From contig CAWHTE010000011.1 in the NCBI GenBank assembly GCA_963832165.1, forward strand, positions 96,001-160,000: DNA of 64,000 bases. The letters run 5' to 3'. A program made the translations under genes and the position numbers. The notes below the pieces were generated by a model. It saw only the letters and a list, made by a program, of their open reading frames with translations, was not told where the DNA came from and did no database searches. Position 1 is the first letter of the stretch. Each line of letters starts with the position of its first letter. Positions 1 through 9,954 of the stretch are shown one piece after another. The stretch comes from an uncultured delta proteobacterium. GTDB taxonomy: Bacteria; Myxococcota_A; UBA9160; SMWR01.

Positions 1-155
1 TTCAACAGCTCTTCCGAAACTCCGAACATTATCCTGCGAAACGTCGCAGCCTAACCGAATCACTCACCGCGCAACCCCGCGATTCGACGCGACTCCCTAC
101 CCACACCGGTAAAATAGGCTGCAAGCTCTCGCAGTATTCGCTGCATGGGGGCGCA

Positions 156-174
156 AGCTAATAAGTAGTTAGCC
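156..174 (+). other. Putative integron attI simple site
   Basis: AGCTAAT, a 5-bp spacer (AAGTA), then GTTAGCC (GTTRRRY core). GTTAGCCG is the exact complement of CGGCTAAC at the end of the following gene. No attC-type long hairpin precedes it. Confidence 0.6.
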
Positions 175-186
175 GGCGGGAAGGCG

Positions 187-567
187 ATGCAGACCTTGCG
201 GTCAATTCTCGTGCTCCTCCTCATCGCGATCATCCCGGCGTCGGCGCTCGCGGAGGTGTCCGACAAGGCACCCACGATTCCGCGCCATTGGGTTATCGCT
301 ATCCCCATCGCTGCAGTTCTCTTCGCGGCGGGAAGCCACCGATGGTGGCTTGGCGCGCTACTCGCCGTCGTTCCCATCTTCATCCTGCTCGGCTCGATCG
401 ACATGACGTTCGATCAGTACGTTGGTCCGGCTCTATGGCGCGAGCAGGGCTGGCCGTACTTCGCAAGCCTCTGGAGCTCGGACCTTCTCATGCTCGGTGC
501 CCTGCTGCTCGGCATTCGTCGCGGCTGGGCACGCCGACAACACTCCCATGAGCTACCCGGCGGCTAA
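187..567 (+). CDS. Gene cassette 1: small hypothetical membrane protein (126 aa)
   Basis: ORF starts 12 bp after the GTTAGCC core and its TAA lies inside the R'' box GGCTAAC. Signal peptide plus about 3 hydrophobic segments. Confidence 0.8.
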   Translation: MQTLRSILVLLLIAIIPASALAEVSDKAPTIPRHWVIAIPIAAVLFAAGSHRWWLGALLAVVPIFILLGSIDMTFDQYVGPALWREQGWPYFASLWSSDLLMLGALLLGIRRGWARRQHSHELPGG

Positions 568-690
568 CAAGCGCTTGAAGCTGCCGAGCCCTGCGAAGCG
601 TATCGAGGCTCGATACTGTCTGGCGTCGGCGCTCGGGGCGGTTCCACTGGCGGTCAGCGGGCTCGCAGCTTAAGCGCCGATCCGTTAGAT
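562..690 (+). other. Integron attC recombination site (129 bp)
   Basis: R'' GGCTAAC at 562-568 and R' GTTAGAT at 684-690. GCGCTTGAAGCTGC (571-584) pairs with GCAGCTTAAGCGC (665-677) with one extrahelical base, and pairing continues inward (CGAGCCC/GGGCTCG). Confidence 0.9.
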
Positions 691-703
691 CCTCTCTGCG
701 CTG

Positions 704-1690
704 TCAAGCGCTCATCGCGCAGAATTTCTCGCCGTCGAAGTTGCTATTGCTCGCCCACATTCCGTGGATGCTATGCAGGAGCTTTCGCTCTACGGCGACC
801 AGGGCTTGGATGGGCTTGAGTCCTCCTGCGAGGCGCTTCTGATAGAAGGTCCTCACACTGGGCTCCTCACGGGCTGCGACCATCGCCGGCATGTAGAGCG
901 CCGCTCGCAGGTGACTGTTTCCCTTCTTGCTGATCCGGGCGGGCTTGTGCAGCGAGGTTCCCGAGTCGTGCGCACGCGGGTCGAGTCCCGCGTGAGCGAC
1001 CCACTGACGAGGGGTCATGTCGGCGGGCAGCACGGCGAGCTCGGCGAGAATGCGCAGTGCGCTGGTGGTCGCGATGCCGCGGACCGAAATGAGCCGCTCG
1101 AAGCGTTGCGCGAGCTCGGGGTGCGCTTGCACGAGCTCGAGCGCCTGCTGCTGCAAACGCTCCAGGCTCTGCGCGAGATGCTCGAGGTGCGCTTCGATGT
1201 CCCAGGCGATCGCTTCGGTGAGCTCCGCACAGCGGCCCGCCGCATGAAGTCGATTGCGCTCCTGGGTTCGCGTGACGGTGAGGGCGCCGATCCGACGGAC
1301 GATCGCCCGTAGATCGAGGATCTCGGGCGCGGGCGGCTGCCACGATGCGAAAGGCATTCGCTGCGCAAACTCCAGCAGCACCCCTGCGTCCACGCGATCC
1401 GTCTTCGAGCGCTGCAGCAGCGCGCGTCCGAAGTCCCGCGCCGCCGAGGGGTTCACCACCATCACGTCGATCGCTCGCGCTCGATGCAGCGCTAATGCCA
1501 AGTCGAGGTGGTAGATGCCCGTCGCCTCCAGGCACACGCGCGCGGCCTTTCCGCGGCGGGTCAGCAACCGAATCAGTCGCTCGTGGCCCTCGATATCGTT
1601 GGCCAGTGTGACCCGCTCGGCACGCCCCTCGATCGCCACCGTGATCTCGTCCGCGCTGACATCGACTCCCACATAGCAGGCTCCACGCAT
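704..1690 (-). CDS. IS110-family DEDD recombinase/transposase (328 aa)
   Basis: Motifs VGVDVS, CLEATG and KTDRVDA (DEDD). C-terminal domain has AGLDP...DSG (catalytic Ser) and GNSHLRAALY. Confidence 0.95.
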   Translation of the reverse strand: MRGACYVGVDVSADEITVAIEGRAERVTLANDIEGHERLIRLLTRRGKAARVCLEATGIYHLDLALALHRARAIDVMVVNPSAARDFGRALLQRSKTDRVDAGVLLEFAQRMPFASWQPPAPEILDLRAIVRRIGALTVTRTQERNRLHAAGRCAELTEAIAWDIEAHLEHLAQSLERLQQQALELVQAHPELAQRFERLISVRGIATTSALRILAELAVLPADMTPRQWVAHAGLDPRAHDSGTSLHKPARISKKGNSHLRAALYMPAMVAAREEPSVRTFYQKRLAGGLKPIQALVAVERKLLHSIHGMWASNSNFDGEKFCAMSA

Positions 1691-1699
1691 GCGTCCCCC

Positions 1700-1865
1700 C
1701 GTGTTACGCTGCTTCCGGGTTCCCCGACCCTGTACCGTCGCCTACCGACCTTGTGGATGCAGGCTCTCGGGCCTCGGATCCTCCACGGCATGGGCGAAGA
1801 GGGCGGGGGACCCATCTAACGGACAAGCTCGTGGCTTCAGGCAGCAACGGTCTCCCCGGAAGCGT
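1700..1865 (-). ncRNA. Putative IS110 bridge RNA (ends approximate)
   Basis: Two stem/internal-loop/hairpin units at 1805-1856 and about 1729-1794. Their loop strands match the insertion site and the element's circle junction. Confidence 0.75.
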
Positions 1866-1917
1866 GATCATGCTAGGTCGGATCGTCGGCACGGCCACGG
1901 GGTAGATACAAGGCGTC

Positions 1918-2296
1918 ATGAGCAGGATCGCCGCAACCGCCGTTCTGTGCGCCTGCTGCCGTCATCGCCATTCAGGCGTGTACACAGGTCGCTGGGACGC
2001 GCGCGTATTCGCTCGATTCCCTGCAAGGCGGTTGGTGGTCAGACTGCAATGATCCCGCCGTCGAGTTTCTAATTCGTGGCACCGAGTACTCAGGCGACTT
2101 CGACGGTGCATACGAGCTCACACTTACCGGTGATGTCCTCGTGTTCACGGATGGGCTCGTCGATGGACACAGCACCAATGTCACCCACAAGCCGCTGTCA
2201 TTTCAGATTCTGACTCTGACGGACGAGCGGCTTGTATTGCGCCCATCGCCTGGCAACCCTCATGTCGGCGACTGGGATCTACTATCCTGCAAGTGA
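1918..2296 (+). pseudogene. Gene cassette 2: probable lipoprotein with a frameshift near 1945-1950
   Basis: ATG 1918 gives MSRIAATAVL. A shifted frame continues APAAVIAIQACTQV...GGWWSDCNDPAVEF...LLSCK* to TGA at 2294-2296. Confidence 0.6.
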
Positions 2297-2349
2297 ACTC
2301 CGCGAGATGAATGGCAGCGCGGACATTAGGCCGACGCGCGAGGGGCGGC

Positions 2350-3085
2350 ATGTTGCCCGAGAGCAGGAACATCGCCGACGCCTACTGGGCTGCAGACCTT
2401 GGTTGTGAAGCGGAGGCGCTCAGGCCGACGGAGCCGCGTGTGCAGCCCGTCAGCGGCAGGCACGCGGACTACAACGGCGCATTCATCCTGGTGCTCGATG
2501 GAGCGCCCGTCGTGTCCGTTCCGCCGTCGCTCCTTGCCGTCGTCTCTCCAAGGTCCGCCGAGTTCCGTGCGGATGTGGTTGCGGACCCGAAGCGGCTTCA
2601 CCCGCTCCTTCCTGGGTCGGACCCGACGCGCATGATTGGACCGGCCCACCTCTATTACGCCGATCGAGACCTGCTTCCGATCCACGTCGGCCCTGCCAGC
2701 GCGCCCGCTGAAACCCCTCGACGAAGCGGCCTTTCGGAGGCTCGAGGCCGCGTGCACACCTGGCGACTGGGAGCCGAAGGGATTCGACTTGGAGCCCGAC
2801 CGCACCCACGGCGCGTTCGACCCTGTTGGAGAGCTGCTTGCTGTCGCGAACTTCCGGGTCTGGGGCGAGCGCATCGCGCATCTCAGCGTCGTCGCCCGTC
2901 CGGATGCGCGCGGCAAGGGTCACGGCACGAGCGCGGTCGCTTCCGTCGCGCTCCATGCGCTGCAGTCCGGGTACCTCCTGCAGTACCGGGTTCTGGCTTC
3001 GAACGCGCCATCCATACGGATCGCGCAGAAGCTTGGCTTCCACTACTACGGTTGGTCCATGGCGGCGAGATTTGGCTCGGCTTAA
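2350..3085 (+). pseudogene. Cassette-like GNAT acetyltransferase, frameshifted near 2670
   Basis: N-terminal part from ATG 2350. The shifted frame carries VVARPDARGKGHG and NAPSIRIAQKLGF. Its stop lies in the R''-like GCTTAAC (3080-3086). Confidence 0.7.
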
Positions 3086-3093
3086 CAAGGGCG

Positions 3094-3600
3094 CTGACGC
3101 TCGTCCGCAGACTCGCTCGGCATGAGTGGCGCGAGTATCGCGAGCTTCGCCTGCGCGCTCTCGCCGACTCACCTTCTGCCTTCGCGACGACGCTCGCTGA
3201 CGCTCGGGCTCGCGGGGACGAAGACTGGTCCCGTCAAGTGGCCTTGGGAGCGGAGTCTCCATCCGAGATCGCGCTCGTCGCGGAGATGCACTCGCAGCTG
3301 GTCGGTCTCGTGTGGAGCCGGATCGACGATTCGGATCCCCACCGTGCTCATCTCTATCAGATGTGGGTCGACCCGGACTTCCGCGGCCTTGGAGCGGGAC
3401 GGGAGCTGCTGGCCTCCGCAATCCGCTGGGTCGCGAGCGTCAACGCCCGTGTCATCGTCCTGTCGGTCACCTGTGGCGACACTCCGGCGACGCGCTTGTA
3501 CGGGAACGCGGGCTTCGAGCCCGTCGGGCATCCCGAGCCCCTTAGGCCTGGATCAGACATACTGGCACAGCCCATGCAGCTCGAGTTGCGTGGTGCCTAA
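3094..3600 (+). CDS. Cassette-like GNAT acetyltransferase; canonical start codon missing
   Basis: LRLRALADSPSAF, MWVDPDFRGLGAG and ATRLYGNAGF motifs. Its stop lies in the R''-like GCCTAAC (3595-3601). Confidence 0.8.
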   Translation: MTLVRRLARHEWREYRELRLRALADSPSAFATTLADARARGDEDWSRQVALGAESPSEIALVAEMHSQLVGLVWSRIDDSDPHRAHLYQMWVDPDFRGLGAGRELLASAIRWVASVNARVIVLSVTCGDTPATRLYGNAGFEPVGHPEPLRPGSDILAQPMQLELRGA

Positions 3601-3714
3601 CAAGGCGCGGTTGCACCACTTGCGGCCGCGGTTGGTGACTCCCTTCCTTAGTCGCCACCCCGTTGACTTTCTCCGCGTGATGTGGCGAGATCCCTGCGGG
3701 GGGAATCGCATCGC

Positions 3715-4941
3715 GTGAGCGAGCCCGCTCGACCCGAAAAAAGCCTCGAGCGCGAGATCCGAGCGTTTCACTGGATCCGCCTGCTCGCGGAGCTCTCGGG
3801 CCGCTTCGCGGGCACCGATCAGGAGGGCGAGGCGGCGCGGCGCATCGAGTCGTGGCTGCGCGAGCTCGGCTTCGACGAGATCGGGTTCGCTTCGGTGCCG
3901 TCGCGGCCGCGCGCGGGTTGGGTGTGGGCCGCGCACTTCGTGCTGGGCGCGCTCGGCTGTGCGCTCGGCGGCCCTGCGGGACTGATCCTGGCGGGAGCTG
4001 CGATGCTCTCGTTCCGGCGCGAGGTCACGGGCGGGGCACCGCTGCTCTCGCGCTTGTTCCCCGCACGCGATTCGCAGAACATCGTCGCGCGCGTCGGATC
4101 GCTGCGGCCGCGCCGGCGCGTCGTGATCACGGCGCCGCTCGACGCCGCGCCCGCGAGCGGGCTGTTCGCGGGCCGGATCGCGGCGCGCAGCGCCGCTCCG
4201 CGTGCGGGCGATCGGCCGCCGCGCGGCCTAGCCGCGCTTCCCGTGTTGCTCTTCGACGCGGCGGCGATCGTCTGCGCGGCCGCTGCGCTGGGTGCGGACG
4301 GCACCGTGGTGCTGGCTGCACGCGCGGTGACGGGCGCAGCGCTCGCATTCGGCGCGCTCGCGGCGCTGCGCTGGGCGAGTGTCGCCGCGTCAGCGGGAGC
4401 GAACGACGCGTCGGGCGTGGCCGCGATGCTGTCGGCCGCCGAGCAGCTCGCGGCGCAGCTCCCTCCCGACGTCGAGCTCTGGTGCGCTGCGACCGGCGCC
4501 GAACACACGGGCTCGCGCGGCGTACACGCGCTGCTCGAGGCGCACCCCGAGTGGCACGACGGCAATACGGCGTTCGCGCACTTCGCGTGGGTCGGCGGCG
4601 GCGTGCTGCACTATGCGTGCAGCGAGGGTGAGCTCAAGCGCGCGCACTATCCGACCTCGCTGCTCGAGCTCGCGCGGCGGATCGCCGCGAGCGGCAGCTA
4701 CGGCGTCGTGTCTCCGGCCGACCTCGCCTTCCATACCGCGGGGGGGCTCACCGCGAAGCGCAGTCCACACGTGCTCTCGCTGGTCGCGCTCGAGCCGAAC
4801 GGCCTGCCGCGCGGCTTCCGCACGCGCGGCGGCGAGCCCGAGCAGATCGACACCGAGCTCGTGGTGCGCGCTGCCGACTTCGGCAGCTGCGTGCTGTCGG
4901 CCTGGCTGCGCGGGGACGCGGAGCCGCTCTCGTACGTGTAG
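3715..4941 (+). CDS. M28-peptidase-like membrane protein with degenerate metal ligands
   Basis: SQNIVAR, VVITAPLD, GANDASGVAAML and TGAEHTGSRG motifs, with hydrophobic inserts. Confidence 0.7.
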   Translation: MSEPARPEKSLEREIRAFHWIRLLAELSGRFAGTDQEGEAARRIESWLRELGFDEIGFASVPSRPRAGWVWAAHFVLGALGCALGGPAGLILAGAAMLSFRREVTGGAPLLSRLFPARDSQNIVARVGSLRPRRRVVITAPLDAAPASGLFAGRIAARSAAPRAGDRPPRGLAALPVLLFDAAAIVCAAAALGADGTVVLAARAVTGAALAFGALAALRWASVAASAGANDASGVAAMLSAAEQLAAQLPPDVELWCAATGAEHTGSRGVHALLEAHPEWHDGNTAFAHFAWVGGGVLHYACSEGELKRAHYPTSLLELARRIAASGSYGVVSPADLAFHTAGGLTAKRSPHVLSLVALEPNGLPRGFRTRGGEPEQIDTELVVRAADFGSCVLSAWLRGDAEPLSYV

Positions 4942-4948
4942 GCGATGT

Positions 4949-4982
4949 GGCGGATTACGCCCTTCGGGCTAATCCGCCCTAC
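4949..4982 (-). repeat. GTAG-type REP-like palindrome
   Basis: Minus strand reads GTAGGGCGGATTAGCCCGAAGGGCGTAATCCGCC. It lies between convergent genes. Confidence 0.8.
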
Positions 4983-5545
4983 AGCCGGATGCGCGGGCGC
5001 GCGCGGCGCCCGTTGGCGCTCTGCACGATCGCGCCCATGAGCATCCCCGCCGCGAGCACGCTCGCACCCGTGATCCACTCGGGCCAACGCGCTCCCGCGC
5101 GAAGCTCGAGATTCTCGCGCGTGAGCGAATCGAGCTCTTCCTTCTGAGCGGCGTCGGCCTCGCTGAGCTTCGTGTTCTCGGTCTCGAGCTGCTTCACGCG
5201 CTCGGTGAGCGTTCCGAATTGCCCGCGGGCCTCGGCGGTCTCCGTTCGCATGCGATCGATTCTCATCGCCGCGGGGGGCTCCGCGGCGAGGAAGCCGTCC
5301 TCGATCCAGCCGTCGCCGAGCTCGGACGACGTGCGCACCTGCACCCAACCCTCGCGGCGCGCGACGATCCCCACGGAATCGCCGGTCTTGATGAACCCCT
5401 TGATCCGGAACTCGTTCCCGGGACCCGAGCGCACGTTGAGGCGCAGCTCGTCCTTGACCCAGGCCGTCTCCGCGTCTGCGGCGAGCGCCGCGAACGCCAG
5501 GATCGCCGTGCCGGCCCACCGCGCCGTACGGGCGAAGCGCATCAT
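4979..5545 (-). CDS. SH3-domain protein (TIGR04211/YgiM-like)
   Basis: Signal peptide, LNVRSGPGNEFRI...GWI, a coiled coil, a C-terminal TM helix and a basic tail. Confidence 0.85.
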   Translation of the reverse strand: MMRFARTARWAGTAILAFAALAADAETAWVKDELRLNVRSGPGNEFRIKGFIKTGDSVGIVARREGWVQVRTSSELGDGWIEDGFLAAEPPAAMRIDRMRTETAEARGQFGTLTERVKQLETENTKLSEADAAQKEELDSLTRENLELRAGARWPEWITGASVLAAGMLMGAIVQSANGRRARPRIRL

Positions 5546-5725
5546 GCCTCGAACCCCCTTGCGTTCGAGGTTTTAACCTCTTCTCGGGCCGATTTCCACC
5601 GCCCGCTCGACAGGTTGCATCGGGGTTGCTGGGGGCGCTTCCGGGGGGGCAACCTAGACTGTCCCCGGGTTCCCGCCGCTCGTCGTGAACCCGGAATACG
5701 GCTCCAGCCGCCGGAGGCCGATCAC

Positions 5726-6408
5726 GTGTCCACGAGTCTGTTCAGCGCTGCGGCGCCCGCCACCGCGAGCGCGCAGAGCTCCAGGAAGTGCACCACCGCG
5801 TCGGGGACAACCTCAGCGTGATCTCGAGCCTGATCGACATGCAGACGCTCCAGGTGCGAGACGCCGCGGGCAGGCGCGAGCTCGAGGAATGCCACAGCCG
5901 GATCGTCGCGATCGCGCAGATCCACGAGCACATCTACCGCGCGAAGGACTACTCGCACGTGCCGTTCTCGGACTATGCGCGCAGCCTCGCGAGCGACCTG
6001 CTCAAGACGATCCCGGGCGCGCGTGCGCGCGTGGCGCTCGAATTCGAGCTCGAAGACGTCGCGCTGCCGATCGCCGTGGCGATCCCGTGCGGTCTGGTGC
6101 TGAACGAGCTGATCACGAACGCGTTCGAGCACGCGTTTCCGCCGCCGCGGAACGGCACCGTCCGCATCGAGCTCGCGTGGCTCGAGGGCGCGCGGCTGCG
6201 GCTCGCCGTGTCCGACGACGGGGTCGGCCTGCCGGAGGGATTCGACCTCCAACGCTCCGGCTCGCTCGGAATGCAGCTCGTCGTCGCGCTCGCGAAGCAG
6301 CTCGACGCGGTGATCGGCGCGGAGGCCGGACGCGGCGCTTCGTTCGCGATGACGCTCGCCGTCCGCAGGCGCTCCGCGGCGCCGCGATCGGAATGGCTCC
6401 CCGGGTAG
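5726..6408 (+). CDS. Sensor-less HisKA_2/HATPase histidine kinase; probable frameshift near 5775
   Basis: EVHHRVGDNLSVISSL, NELITNAFEHAF, DDGVGLP and GSLGMQLV motifs. GGAGG at 5713 precedes GTG 5726, which is out of frame with the 5788-6408 ORF. Confidence 0.75.
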
Positions 6409-6469
6409 GACTTGAACCTACGACCCAGCGGTTAACAGCCGCTTGCTCTGCCAACTGAGCTACCGGGGA
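6394..6469 (-). tRNA. tRNA-Asn(GTT)
   Basis: 76-nt cloverleaf TCCCCGGTAGCTCAG...GCGGCT GTT AACCGC...GGTTCAAGTCC...GGAGCCA. Confidence 0.97.
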
Positions 6470-7815
6470 TCGCCCTCGGGCTGCGGGAGTCTAGAGGCTG
6501 GAGGCTGGATTTCAACGAAGCCCGAGCCGGTCTTCGGCACCGCGATCACGATCGGCCGCGAGGTAGGGGCCTTGCGCCCGTCGCTGCGTTCGAGCTGGAT
6601 CCGGTAGCGGTAGGTCTGGCCCGGCATCACGTCCTCGTCGCGCAGCTCCGCAGTCTCGCTCGTGAACGTGCGCTCCTCGTAGAGCCCCCTCGTGCGCGTG
6701 ATGAGCGCGCGCACGAAGCCCTCGTTGGGACGCGCGTTCCAGGTGAGTCGCACCTCGTTCGGGCTCGCAGAGGCCCGCCATTCGTAGCCGAGGCCGGTCG
6801 CGTTCACGGGCGTCGAGGGCCGACTCTCGAGCCCGTCGCGGTCTACCGCGACCAGCGTGTACTGATAGGTGGCCTCGGCTCCCGCGCGGATGTCCTCGGC
6901 GCTCGTCTTGCTTGCGCCCACGTAGGTGACCGTCTGGGCGGGTTTCCCCTTTCGCCAGCGGAGCAGCCGGTAGCCGAGCAGATCGGTCTCGACGTTCGGC
7001 TCCCACGCGAGCGCGATCGCGCCGAGGCGGCGTCCATCGACGTGCAGCGAGATCGGCGGCAGCGGAGCGGGCTTCGTCACCGCGCGCAGCACTGCGCTCG
7101 GGGCGCCGCGCTCGCCGGCGAGATTGCGGCACGACACGCGGTAGTGTAGAACGCGCAGGTTGCCGAGACCCGTGTCGAGCAGGTGCGTGGTTTGACGGCC
7201 GTCGAGCTCGGCCACCACCTCGAACGGTCCGCCCGGATTGGGGCTGCGCTCGACGATGTAGCCCGACACGGTCGGATCGCTCGAGGGGCTCCACGTGAGC
7301 GGAATCGACCGCGGTTGGTGACTCCACGCGCGCAATCCCTCGGGAGGCGCCGGCAGCGGCGCGCTCGTCGCGGTCACGACCGGCGAGGCGGTCGACGACA
7401 CGTGCCCGTCGTGCGCGAACGCGCGCAGGCGGTAGAAGCGCGTGGCGCCGTCGCCGAGCGGCTCGTTGGGCTCACCGCGATCGACCCACGCGAGCATGCC
7501 GCGGTCGCGCAGCGCCACGCGCGCGCGGAACGGTCCCGACGCGGAGGCGCTGCTCTCGACGACGTAGCCCGCAACGCCCGGGATCAGCACGGGATCCCAG
7601 CGCAGCGGGATCTCGCGGTACTGCCCGTCCGCCGCGCGGACCGCCTCGGGAGCGGGCAGATCGGCGGGCGGGTCGTAGACGAGCGCGGGTTCGGGCGCGG
7701 CGACCGGCGCACGCGCGGCGACCCAGGGCAGCGACGCGTTCGCGCACGCGCTGGCGGCGCCCGCGGCGACGACGGCGAGCGCGTAGAGCGGGATCCGGCG
7801 CCAGCGAGAGTTCAT
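6460..7815 (-). CDS. Fibronectin type III repeat lipoprotein
   Basis: Lipobox-like ASAC after a signal peptide, and repeated LxW...GY.V...Y.Y FN3 patterns. ATGA overlap with the upstream gene. Confidence 0.8.
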   Translation of the reverse strand: MNSRWRRIPLYALAVVAAGAASACANASLPWVAARAPVAAPEPALVYDPPADLPAPEAVRAADGQYREIPLRWDPVLIPGVAGYVVESSASASGPFRARVALRDRGMLAWVDRGEPNEPLGDGATRFYRLRAFAHDGHVSSTASPVVTATSAPLPAPPEGLRAWSHQPRSIPLTWSPSSDPTVSGYIVERSPNPGGPFEVVAELDGRQTTHLLDTGLGNLRVLHYRVSCRNLAGERGAPSAVLRAVTKPAPLPPISLHVDGRRLGAIALAWEPNVETDLLGYRLLRWRKGKPAQTVTYVGASKTSAEDIRAGAEATYQYTLVAVDRDGLESRPSTPVNATGLGYEWRASASPNEVRLTWNARPNEGFVRALITRTRGLYEERTFTSETAELRDEDVMPGQTYRYRIQLERSDGRKAPTSRPIVIAVPKTGSGFVEIQPPASRLPQPEGDPR

Positions 7816-8548
7816 GCCCCGCCGTCGCGCTCGGCGCGCAGCTGCTCGAGCGTTTCGAGCTGTCGTTCGGCGCGCGCGATGTACGCCTGGATCCGCTCGT
7901 TCTCGGGATCGATCAGGAGCGCGCGCCGCCACAGGTCGAGCGCCGTCTCGAGCTGTTCGTCGCCGAATGCGGCGCGACCCGCTTCCACGAGCGATTCGAC
8001 CTGTGCCACGCGCGCCGCACGCGCTCGCTCGCGCCGCTCGCGCCGCTCGCTCCTCGATCACCGCGCGCAGCCTCAGCTCTTCGCTCTGGTACGCGGGCTC
8101 GAAGGGGTCGAGCCGGCGCAGCTTCTCGAGCGCGGGCTCGGCCGAGGCGAGATCGCCGCGCGTGCGTACCTCGCGATACTCGTCGAGCAGCGCGTTGCGC
8201 TGGGCCACGACCTCGCGCGCGAGCCGCTGCACGTGGGCGAGGTTCGCCTCGTCGTCGGGTTGTAACTCGAGCGCGAGGCGATAGTCGATCAGCGCCTCCG
8301 CGAGTCGCCCTTCGCTCTCGAGCATGCGCGCGTTCGAGATGTAGCGCCCGACGCGTCCGGCCAGCTCCGCCTCCACCTCGCGGATCCGCGGCGCGAGCCC
8401 GTCCGGGTCGACCGCGCGCCAGCTCTCGATCGCGCCGTGCAGATCTCCGGCGCTGTAGAGCAATTCGCCTTGCTCGCCCGAGGTGGCGCATCCGAGTCCG
8501 AGCACGCCACATCCGAGCCATCGCGGCCACCGTGCGAGCGGCCCTCAA
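7812..8548 (-). CDS. TPR-like lipoprotein; apparent frameshift(s) near 8030 and near the start
   Basis: LGLGC lipobox, EALIDYRLALELQPDD, and in a second frame ALDLWRRALLIDPENERI ending at 7812. Confidence 0.65.
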
Positions 8549-9954
8549 ACGCGGGCCGCCTTGCCCTCCGCTCCCGCGCCAGCGAGCGGACCGAGGTCGA
8601 CCGAATAGACGTGCACGGGCTCCTCTCGGCCGGAGAGCTGCCGCTCGCCCTCGAAGCGCAGCCGCGCCGCGCCGCGCGCCTGGAGCTGGACCGCCTCGGA
8701 TACGAGGATTTCGCCCGGCCGCGCGAGCTTCTCGAGGCGGTGCGCCACGTTCACGGCGTCGCCGACGGCCGTGAAGTCGGAGCGCCGATCCGAGCCGATG
8801 TTGCCCACCACGACGACGCCGGTGTGGATGCCGATGCCGATCGAGATCGGCACGCCGTCTCCACCCGCGGCGATCTGCACGTTGCGCCGCTCCACGCCGC
8901 GCGCGATCTCGATCGCAGCCGTCACGGCGCGCAGCGCGTGGTCGGCCTGCGGCAGCGGTGCGCCGAAGTAGGCCATCACCGAATCGCCGATGAATTTGTC
9001 GATCGTGCCACCGGCACCCAGGATCAGGTCGGAGATCAGCTGGAAGCACTCGTTCAACAGGCCGACGACGTCGTTCGCGTCCATGCCCTCGGACAGGCGC
9101 GTGAACTGGCGGATGTCGACGAACAGGATCGTCACCTCGCGCTCGATGCCGGACTGTTTCTCGTCGGTGTCGTTCTCGAGCAGCTGGTTCAAGACGTAGT
9201 CGTCGACGTAGCGGCCGAACGCCTGCTGGATCTTGTGCTTCTGCTCGAGCGAGTCGCCCATCTCGTTGAACGCGCGCGTGAGCTCCCCGACCTCGTCGTG
9301 CGATGTCGGCGGCACGCGGACGTTGACGTCGCCCGCGGCGAGCCGTTCGACACCCACGCGCAGGCGCCGCAGCGGGCCGACCAGCAGCGCAACGAAGCCG
9401 ATTCCCGCGAGCACGCCCACCACCACCACCACCACGGCCACCGCTGCGAGCTGCTGTGCATTGCTCGCGACCACGGGGTCGACGAGCAGGCGCAGATCGA
9501 GCTCGACCTGGGCTTCGCCGATCAGCACGTCGCTGTAGATCACGGGCGCGGCGACCTGGAGGCGGCTGCCGTCGCGCGCCACCGAGACGCCGTCGGCCGC
9601 GTTCGGGTGGCCCGCGAGGCTCTCGCGCCGCTGATCGCGCTGGCCGGCATCGCTCGACGCGAGCACGCGTCCCTCGTGGTCGAGCAGCCGGACCGCGACC
9701 ACGCCCTCGCGGTTGCCGACGTCCTGGATCAGCTTGTCGAGCGAGAGCTCGGGCGAAAACGCGCCGCGGCCGGCCTCGAGCAGCGGCTCCTTCGCCGCCC
9801 CCGCGAGGTTCGCGGCGAGCGCACGGGCGCGTTTCTCGACTTCGGATTCGAGCGCGCGTCGCTCGTGCCGGGTGGCCAGCACGGCGAGGACCACACAAGC
9901 CGTCACGAGTAACGCGACGACGAGCGCGCTGAACTTGACCTGGAGCGATCGCAA
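8545..9954 (-). CDS. Membrane class III adenylate/guanylate cyclase with HAMP domain
   Basis: Two TM helices, HAMP (DEVGELTRAFNEM), and ILFVDIRQFT, DKFIGDSVMA, GDAVNVAHRLE motifs. Confidence 0.93.
   Translation of the reverse strand: MRSLQVKFSALVVALLVTACVVLAVLATRHERRALESEVEKRARALAANLAGAAKEPLLEAGRGAFSPELSLDKLIQDVGNREGVVAVRLLDHEGRVLASSDAGQRDQRRESLAGHPNAADGVSVARDGSRLQVAAPVIYSDVLIGEAQVELDLRLLVDPVVASNAQQLAAVAVVVVVVGVLAGIGFVALLVGPLRRLRVGVERLAAGDVNVRVPPTSHDEVGELTRAFNEMGDSLEQKHKIQQAFGRYVDDYVLNQLLENDTDEKQSGIEREVTILFVDIRQFTRLSEGMDANDVVGLLNECFQLISDLILGAGGTIDKFIGDSVMAYFGAPLPQADHALRAVTAAIEIARGVERRNVQIAAGGDGVPISIGIGIHTGVVVVGNIGSDRRSDFTAVGDAVNVAHRLEKLARPGEILVSEAVQLQARGAARLRFEGERQLSGREEPVHVYSVDLGPLAGAGAEGKAARV

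What the first reader, a model, noticed from the sequence alone, without database searches (positions are those of the whole stretch)
681..1917. IS110 element inserted into the attC core while regenerating the attC
Seen: left junction TCCGTT-AG-ATCCTCT and right junction GGGGT-AG-ATACAAG. In element orientation the core is CT, the empty target is CTTGTAT-CT-AACGGA and the circle junction is AGAGGAT-CT-ACCCCG. The element's end supplies AT, so the attC still ends GTTAGAT (GTTRRRY). Established: the attC-targeting IS I know of are IS1111-type, with sub-terminal IRs and a downstream non-coding region. This element has no IRs and an upstream non-coding end, like IS621. Inference: a separate attC-parasitising lineage that leaves cassette 1 mobile and rides as the first part of the next cassette.
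Basis: partly seen in the sequence, partly recalled or inferred. Interest (0 to 1): 0.85.

Follow-up and report, generated by a model that had tools for sequence, protein, structure and literature searches.

The report
RNA-guided IS sparing integron attC
This is a jumping gene whose own guide RNA appears to aim it at the end of an integron's gene-swapping site, where it lands without breaking the site's consensus, unlike the known insertion sequences that cut such sites in two.

Summary
Real, but one end was misplaced. The element is an intact IS621-type IS110 bridge recombinase (window 689-1910, AG cores at 687-688 and 1911-1912, not 1904-1905), inserted after GTTAG of the attC R' box; the empty box reads GTTAGGC. 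A second identical copy sits at the same base of a truncated attC. The upstream non-coding end folds like a bridge RNA; its guides match the attC core and follow the target in retargeted relatives. Among relatives, 76 of 96 insertions with a readable flank have the attC-type AAC after the core; 49 of 57 testable ones show a full attC or its L' half. The protein is not in the IS1111-attC group (AU p=0.0002). That group inserts at the opposite end and splits attC. The filled box reads GTTAGAT, but this follows from a donor end shared with IS621. Hitch-hiking on cassettes is unshown; this genome has no IntI. I found no paper on such a lineage. The scan has noted a similar IS110-type attC element on other DNA. 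Verdict: new variant of a known kind.

The parts
145..174 (+). attI-like site ending in GTTAGCC (168-174); start of cassette 1; no intI beside it
   Evidence: resembles the attI regions of complete integrons in G078 and G102 by eye; 168-174 is the exact complement of R'' at 562-568; no IntI in G000
187..567 (+). cassette 1 gene, 126 aa, no Pfam hit; its stop codon lies in R''
562..690 (+). attC1: R'' 562-568, L'' 574-581, L' 668-674, R' 684-690 (GTTAGAT; the last 2 nt come from the element)
   Evidence: bottom-strand fold -33.0 kcal/mol, z -2.63; same fold with the reconstructed empty end, -32.9; L-box register 10 pairs
687..688 (-). core dinucleotide (CT in element orientation) at the element's right end
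689..1910 (-). IS110 (IS621-type) element without cores, 1222 nt
   Evidence: identical second copy G000:C1:234286-235520; ends fixed by multi-copy relatives G078, G126, G188
689..707 (-). short right end; -35 box TTGACA (707-702) overlaps the stop codon; last bases AT pair with the handshake guide (inferred)
   Evidence: TTG[A/G]C with 17-nt spacing to a TA-n-n-T box across the circle junction in 74 of 74 parsed elements
704..1690 (-). DEDD bridge recombinase, 328 aa; D10, E55, D98, D101 and S243 invariant
   Evidence: 35% identical to IS621, 25% over 271 aa to ISPa21
1691..1910 (-). upstream non-coding end encoding the predicted bridge RNA (target loop, then donor loop)
   Evidence: consensus fold of 48 relatives; 11 of 27 named pairs have a change on both sides, 98.6% of cells paired
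1839..1847 (-). left target guide (LTG) TTGCTGCCT
   Evidence: follows the left flank in relatives, 6.02 of 7 against 5.09 permuted, n=84
1814..1823 (-). right target guide TCCGTTAG (1823-1816) plus handshake AT (1815-1814); reads like the attC top strand at the filled junction
   Evidence: 8 of 8 match in both G000 copies; follows the right flank in relatives, 6.5 of 7 against 5.58 permuted, n=82
1776..1784 (-). left donor guide GGAGGATC(C)
   Evidence: G/T at its fifth position follows the element's right end (7 and 65 cases)
1750..1754 (-). right donor guide ACAAG, complementary to core+TGT at the corrected left end
1913..2296 (+). rest of cassette 2: ATG at 1918, frame change near 1950-1960, stop near 2296; no intact attC after it

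Best explanation
An active-looking IS621-type bridge recombinase element from a clade, seen here in Myxococcota and in metagenomes, whose target loop is mostly programmed to the R' box of integron attC sites. Inferred cycle, by homology to IS621: excision gives a circle whose junction (AT-CT-TGTAT) builds a -35/-10 promoter and makes the bridge RNA. The target loop opens the attC bottom strand at GC-CT-AAC and the recombinase exchanges strands at the CT core. The element lands antisense, 4 nt inside the next cassette. Because the donor end is AT-CT, the R' box changes from GTTAGGC to GTTAGAT and keeps its GTTRRRY consensus and hairpin, so the upstream attC is probably still usable by IntI. The downstream gene is pushed 1.2 kb away from upstream promoters. 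Shown: ends, insertion point, guide-target matches and their covariation, clade membership. Inferred: RNA expression, catalysis, the circle, and attC activity after insertion.
For: Two identical copies at the same attC base. 76 of 96 relatives with a readable right flank have AAC after the core. Of 57 such sites with at least 150 nt of flank, 27 are full attC and 22 show an L' box only, against 8 and 24 of 715 CTAAC sites in G000; a strict test gave 28 of 57 against 6 of 715 and 0 of 1140 shuffles. An RTG ending GTTAG goes with CTAAC in 64 of 68; other RTGs in 1 of 14. An LTG ending AT goes with an AT left core in 5 of 7, as expected if top strands are cut after the core and exchanged (PMC11208158 passages). 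RNA stems covary. Catalytic residues are intact. Elements of the clade lie in complete integrons in G188, G078 and G102.
Against: No empty allele, circle junction or sized RNA was seen. The single NCR folds no better than shuffles (z 0.09). 8 of 57 AAC sites have no attC feature next to the element (one, L022, is an attC split by a later IS), and 3 of 6 copies in G188 are off attC. 17 of 90 clade rows do not have AAC after the core. Relatives were collected by similarity to this protein and are kin, so the counts overstate independence. End parsing used motifs (TGTA[T/C], T before the core) that fix some of the counted letters. G000 (89% complete) has no IntI.
Confidence: 0.85

Rival explanations
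1. A member of the known IS1111-attC group with its parts rearranged.
For: It shares the target class and the antisense orientation (PMC3001079 passage), and both proteins pass NF033542.
Against: No sub-terminal IR, upstream NCR, 25% identity to ISPa21 against 35% to IS621. AU test rejects a clade with ISPa21, p=0.0002 (27 rows, LG+G4, long branches present). ISPa21 inserts between the R'' spacer and L'', the opposite end.
Confidence: 0.03
2. The element recognises a short linear sequence only, and attC sites are merely the commonest place where it occurs. The spared R' box is an accident of the IS621-type end.
For: Off-attC copies in G188 match the guides. 22 of 57 sites show only an L' half. 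IS621's donor also ends AT-CT. About ten separate retargeted branches exist.
Against: The same attC guide persists across proteins as little as 53% identical to this one, which suggests selection to keep this target. L032 has a changed donor end and handshake guide and still yields a GTTRRRY box (one case).
Confidence: 0.45
3. The first reader's ends are right (core at 1904-1905) and the shared flank is a conserved target.
For: An AG does occur at 1904-1905.
Against: 34 of 84 left ends lack that core; guides, junction promoter, IS621's start and the canonical empty box all need 1911-1912.
Confidence: 0.02

Closest known systems
IS621 and ISCro4 bridge recombinases (Durrant 2024, PMC11208160; Hiraizumi 2024, PMC11208158)
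   Same: DEDD+Ser recombinase of about 330 aa (E 3e-45 and 4e-46), upstream bridge RNA with target and donor loops, CT core, donor junction AT-CT-TGTAT, junction promoter, AT handshake guide.
   Different: 35% identity and a separate clade; the target loop is aimed at the attC R' box instead of REP; the right end is only 15 nt after the stop.
IS1111-attC group: ISKpn4, ISPst6, ISPa21, ISPa25 (Siddiquee 2024, PMC11187229; Tetu & Holmes 2008 and Post & Hall 2009, both seen only as citations)
   Same: RNA-guided, attC-targeting, antisense to the array.
   Different: IS1111 branch, 13-nt sub-terminal IR, downstream NCR; inserts at the R''/L'' end and splits attC (table in PMC13604230). This clade inserts after GTTAG of R' and keeps the consensus. 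Both kinds occur in one array of G078.
Group IIC-attC introns (PMC3001079)
   Same: Independent mobile lineage that targets the attC bottom strand.
   Different: Retroelement with a different chemistry; it separates a gene from its attC.
ISPpu10 (bioRxiv 10.64898/2026.03.19.712850, abstract only)
   Same: IS110 element whose target carries a stem-loop.
   Different: There the stem-loop is shown to be needed; here a role of the attC hairpin is untested.

Membership tests
IS110 family (broad) | DEDD RuvC domain PF01548 plus C-terminal PF02371 with catalytic Ser | tested here: met
IS110/IS621-type bridge recombinase | long non-coding end upstream of the gene, no long sub-terminal IR | tested here: met
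   220 nt upstream, 15 nt downstream; longest IR 4 nt
IS110/IS621-type bridge recombinase | CT core at both ends; circle junction with -35/17 nt/-10 | tested here: met
   the -10 is a weak TA-n-n-T box and activity is untested
IS110/IS621-type bridge recombinase | two-loop RNA with LTG, RTG, LDG, RDG that covary with target and donor | tested here: met
   kin are not independent and the structure came from the same alignment
IS110/IS621-type bridge recombinase | RNA is expressed, binds the protein and directs recombination | not testable with these tools
   contigs from RNA libraries cover the region but show neither strand nor ends
IS1111-attC group | 11-13 nt sub-terminal inverted repeats | tested here: not met
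   4 nt against 13 nt in ISPa21
IS1111-attC group | non-coding region downstream of the gene | tested here: not met
IS1111-attC group | protein in one clade with ISPa21 | tested here: not met
   (AU p=0.0002); only ISPa21 represented the group
IS1111-attC group | insertion at the R''/L'' end of attC | tested here: not met
integron attC site (562-690) | R''/R' and L''/L' boxes, extrahelical base, bottom-strand hairpin | tested here: met
   the L'-R' spacer is 9 nt, and 8-9 nt in 22 of 29 full attC beside relatives
integron attC site (562-690) | recombined by IntI | not testable with these tools
   no IntI found in G000

The most novel reading that the evidence does not exclude
A third independent attC-parasite lineage that settled on the one position where its IS621-type donor end rebuilds GTTRRRY. 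It does not disable the site, becomes the first part of the next cassette, and so moves both by its own RNA-guided recombination and as a passenger of IntI between arrays and hosts, while uncoupling the downstream gene from upstream or attC-internal promoters.
Probability: 0.3. Interest if true: 0.72.

Novelty: new variant of a known kind. Interest (0 to 1): 0.56.

Why it matters
It would show that bridge-RNA programming reached integron attC sites twice, from both branches of the IS110 superfamily and at opposite ends of the site, with opposite effects on the site. It makes testable whether a mobile element can occupy a recombination hotspot at little cost and borrow the integrase. The clade also offers a natural set of retargeted guides, including AT-core targets, for studying bridge-RNA rules. 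For annotation, such an insertion leaves attC calls intact and makes the IS look like a cassette gene.

Tried and rejected
Empty allele: cassette 2 DNA was found in 0 of 43 other genomes of the family. Reads: of 24 listed runs none holds half of the words; 4 were laid, all as contigs, with no joint and no circle junction. RNA-library contigs covered 1591-1862, 1686-1857 and 1694-1854, but a DNA contig also ends at 1863, so this is not evidence of a transcript. Viral contigs: 42 pattern matches, none confirmed. Rfam: no match in 1-6000. Single-sequence fold of the NCR was uninformative. Hitch-hiking test: 0 of 68 insertions shared a downstream cassette flank; the sample is sparse, so this is no evidence of absence. 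The careful tree did not finish; the quick tree is used; 15 loci were left out as partial or frameshifted and 21 as duplicates or extra copies of an element. IntI in G000: only XerC/D-level hits. Tetu & Holmes 2008 was not held; Post & Hall 2009 was not looked up. I considered that the L002 flank is an attI and rejected it: it matches the 3' part of full attC sites on C2 and C7. No structure, complex, atlas or protein-database search was run.

Full report
Observation. The window begins with an attI-like site, one cassette (gene 187-567) and its attC (562-690), followed by an antisense IS110-family gene (704-1690, 328 aa). The nearest solved structures are ISCro4 and IS621; D10, E55, D98, D101 and S243 are invariant in 7 of 7 aligned proteins. 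The genome holds one more, identical copy on contig C1. Its flank matches the 3' part of full attC sites elsewhere in the genome but lacks R'' and L''.

Ends. The other is not. Both copies and the three relatives from species genomes share sequence beyond 1904-1905, up to a second AG at 1911-1912. IS621 starts with the same CT-TGTAT (supplement of PMC11208160). With the corrected end the empty box is GTTAGGC in both copies, and 54 of 61 reconstructed empty boxes of relatives fit GTTRRRY (one of the 7 misses is a parsing error). The circle junction then places TTG[A/G]C 17 nt from a TA-n-n-T box in 74 of 74 parsed elements, as described for IS621 (PMC11208158 passages). The element is 689-1910.

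Bridge RNA. The 220-nt upstream end alone folds no better than shuffles, but 48 aligned relatives give a target loop and a donor loop; 11 of 27 named pairs have double-sided changes, 98.6% of cells pair, and 0 of 500 shuffles reach this (the structure came from this alignment and the rows are kin). The loops hold LTG 1847-1839, RTG 1823-1816, LDG 1784-1776 and RDG 1754-1750. Guides follow flanks: 6.02 of 7 for LTG (n=84) and 6.5 of 7 for RTG (n=82), against permuted means of 5.09 and 5.58, 0 of 2000 permutations reaching either. More telling than these kin-inflated figures are the retargeted members: 13 of 14 with another RTG have another flank, and 5 of 7 with an LTG ending AT have an AT left core but a CT right core, as the IS621 strand-exchange scheme predicts.

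Target. Loci came from 225 genomes of the class (22 others positive), 401 of the phylum, species genomes (3 loci) and metagenomes (the best 80 of 483 hits). Of 143 loci with a hit, 109 distinct insertions of at least 49% identity had a parsed junction; 76 of 96 with a readable right flank have AAC after the core. Of 57 of these with at least 150 nt, 27 are full attC, 22 show only an L'-like box and 8 neither; among 715 CTAAC sites of G000 the figures are 8, 24 and 683. One of the 8 (L022) is an attC split by a later IS. Targeting is not exclusive: 3 of 6 copies in G188 lie off attC. IntI was found in 5 of 5 chosen element-bearing genomes and 23 of 43 other family genomes, but not in G000. In G188, G078 and G102 the element lies in an array next to intI. 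The host group is Myxococcota, inferred from record labels of L010 and L011, which equal loci of same-order genomes.

Lineage. In a quick tree of 111 proteins the element falls in a 90-row group (SH-aLRT 96) of which 73 carry the attC-type label (AAC after the core, or a GTTAG guide where the end is missing; L072 labelled by hand) and 17 do not, spread over about ten branches. One attC-inserted member (L124) fell just outside. ISPa21 groups with an IS1111-type protein; a clade of ISPa21 with 12 members of this group is rejected (p-AU 0.0002). I took L157 as ISPa21 from its place in the In416 integron (PMC7232449 passages) and its likeness to ISKpn4 as shown. It has a 13-nt IR and a downstream NCR and sits between the R'' spacer and L'', matching the insertion points tabulated for ISKpn4, ISPst6 and ISPa25 (PMC13604230, one table passage). 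One G078 array holds both kinds.

Effect on attC. IntI recombines between the first and second base of GTTRRRY (PMC8876359 passage), so the element lies 4 nt inside the next cassette. The filled box is GTTAGAT in 79 of 79 parsed AAC cases (the parse fixed the sixth letter), and the hairpin is unchanged (-33.0 against -32.9). The two restored bases are the donor end that the AT handshake guide pairs with, and IS621 has the same end. The spared box is thus a pre-existing property and may or may not be why this target was kept. Hitch-hiking is unshown and cannot operate at this locus as assembled: no IntI, and cassette 2 has a frame change and no intact attC.

Literature. Searches: IS110+attC+integron (32 papers, 30 listed), 'bridge RNA'+attC (1, citations only), IS1111+attC (40, 30 listed), named IS1111-attC elements, 'bridge recombinase'+integron (0), a 2024-onward search (36, 30 listed), an attC/IS110-family search and IS621+attC (4). 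I saw no description of an IS621-type attC-targeting element in the listings or in what I read. The clade motif WVAHAG (91 of 91 close proteins, partly by selection) is absent from the ISfinder-derived protein set in the source data of PMC11187229. The attC guide motif was absent from the held, partly cut supplements of PMC11208160, though relatives with the same donor junction are in them. Read: PMC11208160 (passages, section 6, supplement hits), PMC11187229 (first part, passages, supplement hits), passages of PMC11208158, PMC3001079, PMC11616780, PMC11089894, PMC12444791, PMC7232449, PMC5034289, PMC8876359, PMC13604230; abstract of 10.64898/2026.03.19.712850; a term search of 10.64898/2026.08.14.744561 (no 'integron'). 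Subscription papers, bioRxiv supplements and ISfinder itself were not searchable, so an earlier mention is possible.

Verdict. A real, well-supported feature with one corrected end. The mechanism is the known bridge-RNA one. What is new is the natural target, the insertion point and the spared site, in a lineage independent of IS1111-attC. New variant of a known kind; interest 0.56.

Noticed in passing
full attC sites beside L019, L020, L066, L092, L117 and others: 13 of 24 attC sites of at least 95 nt carry TGnTAnnnT (extended -10-like) on the top strand, 2 of 24 on the bottom strand, 3.9% in shuffles: possible attC-internal promoters for the next cassette. The window's attC lacks it.
   Followed up: partly
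L167 (G078:C14) 4548-5900 and 7932-9300: One integron array holds an element of this clade at an R' box and an IS1111-type element between the R'' spacer and L'' of another attC.
   Followed up: yes
L166 (G188:C1) 6416-9300: attC1 was hit by this clade, and an IS1380-like element (label recalled) sits between the two with GTTAG on both sides.
   Followed up: partly
L101, L102, L103, L115, L116, L123: A sub-lineage retargeted to CT-ATCCG sites that share a following repeat-like sequence of unknown kind.
   Followed up: no
window 60-174 and G000:C11:95620-96000: attI-like and promoter-like sequence without intI: an integron that seems to have lost its integrase.
   Followed up: partly
window 1918-3630: Decayed array: cassette 2 has a frame change near 1950-1960; two GNAT genes (2636-3085, 3085-3600) end in R''-like fragments at about 3080-3105 and 3595-3620 without complete attC sites.
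   Followed up: partly
G000 contigs C1, C2, C4, C5, C7: Several small attC clusters without integrase; these attC sites have 8-9 nt L'-R' spacers, and some empty ones match the element's guides.
   Followed up: partly
L045 (Salinibacter plasmid): A 45%-identical relative has a CCGTTAT right guide and an AT core on both sides followed by AAC; attC status not tested.
   Followed up: no
L151 (G000:C3:790699-791634): A second, distant IS110-family gene (28% identity) beside an IS21-like helper gene (label recalled).
   Followed up: no
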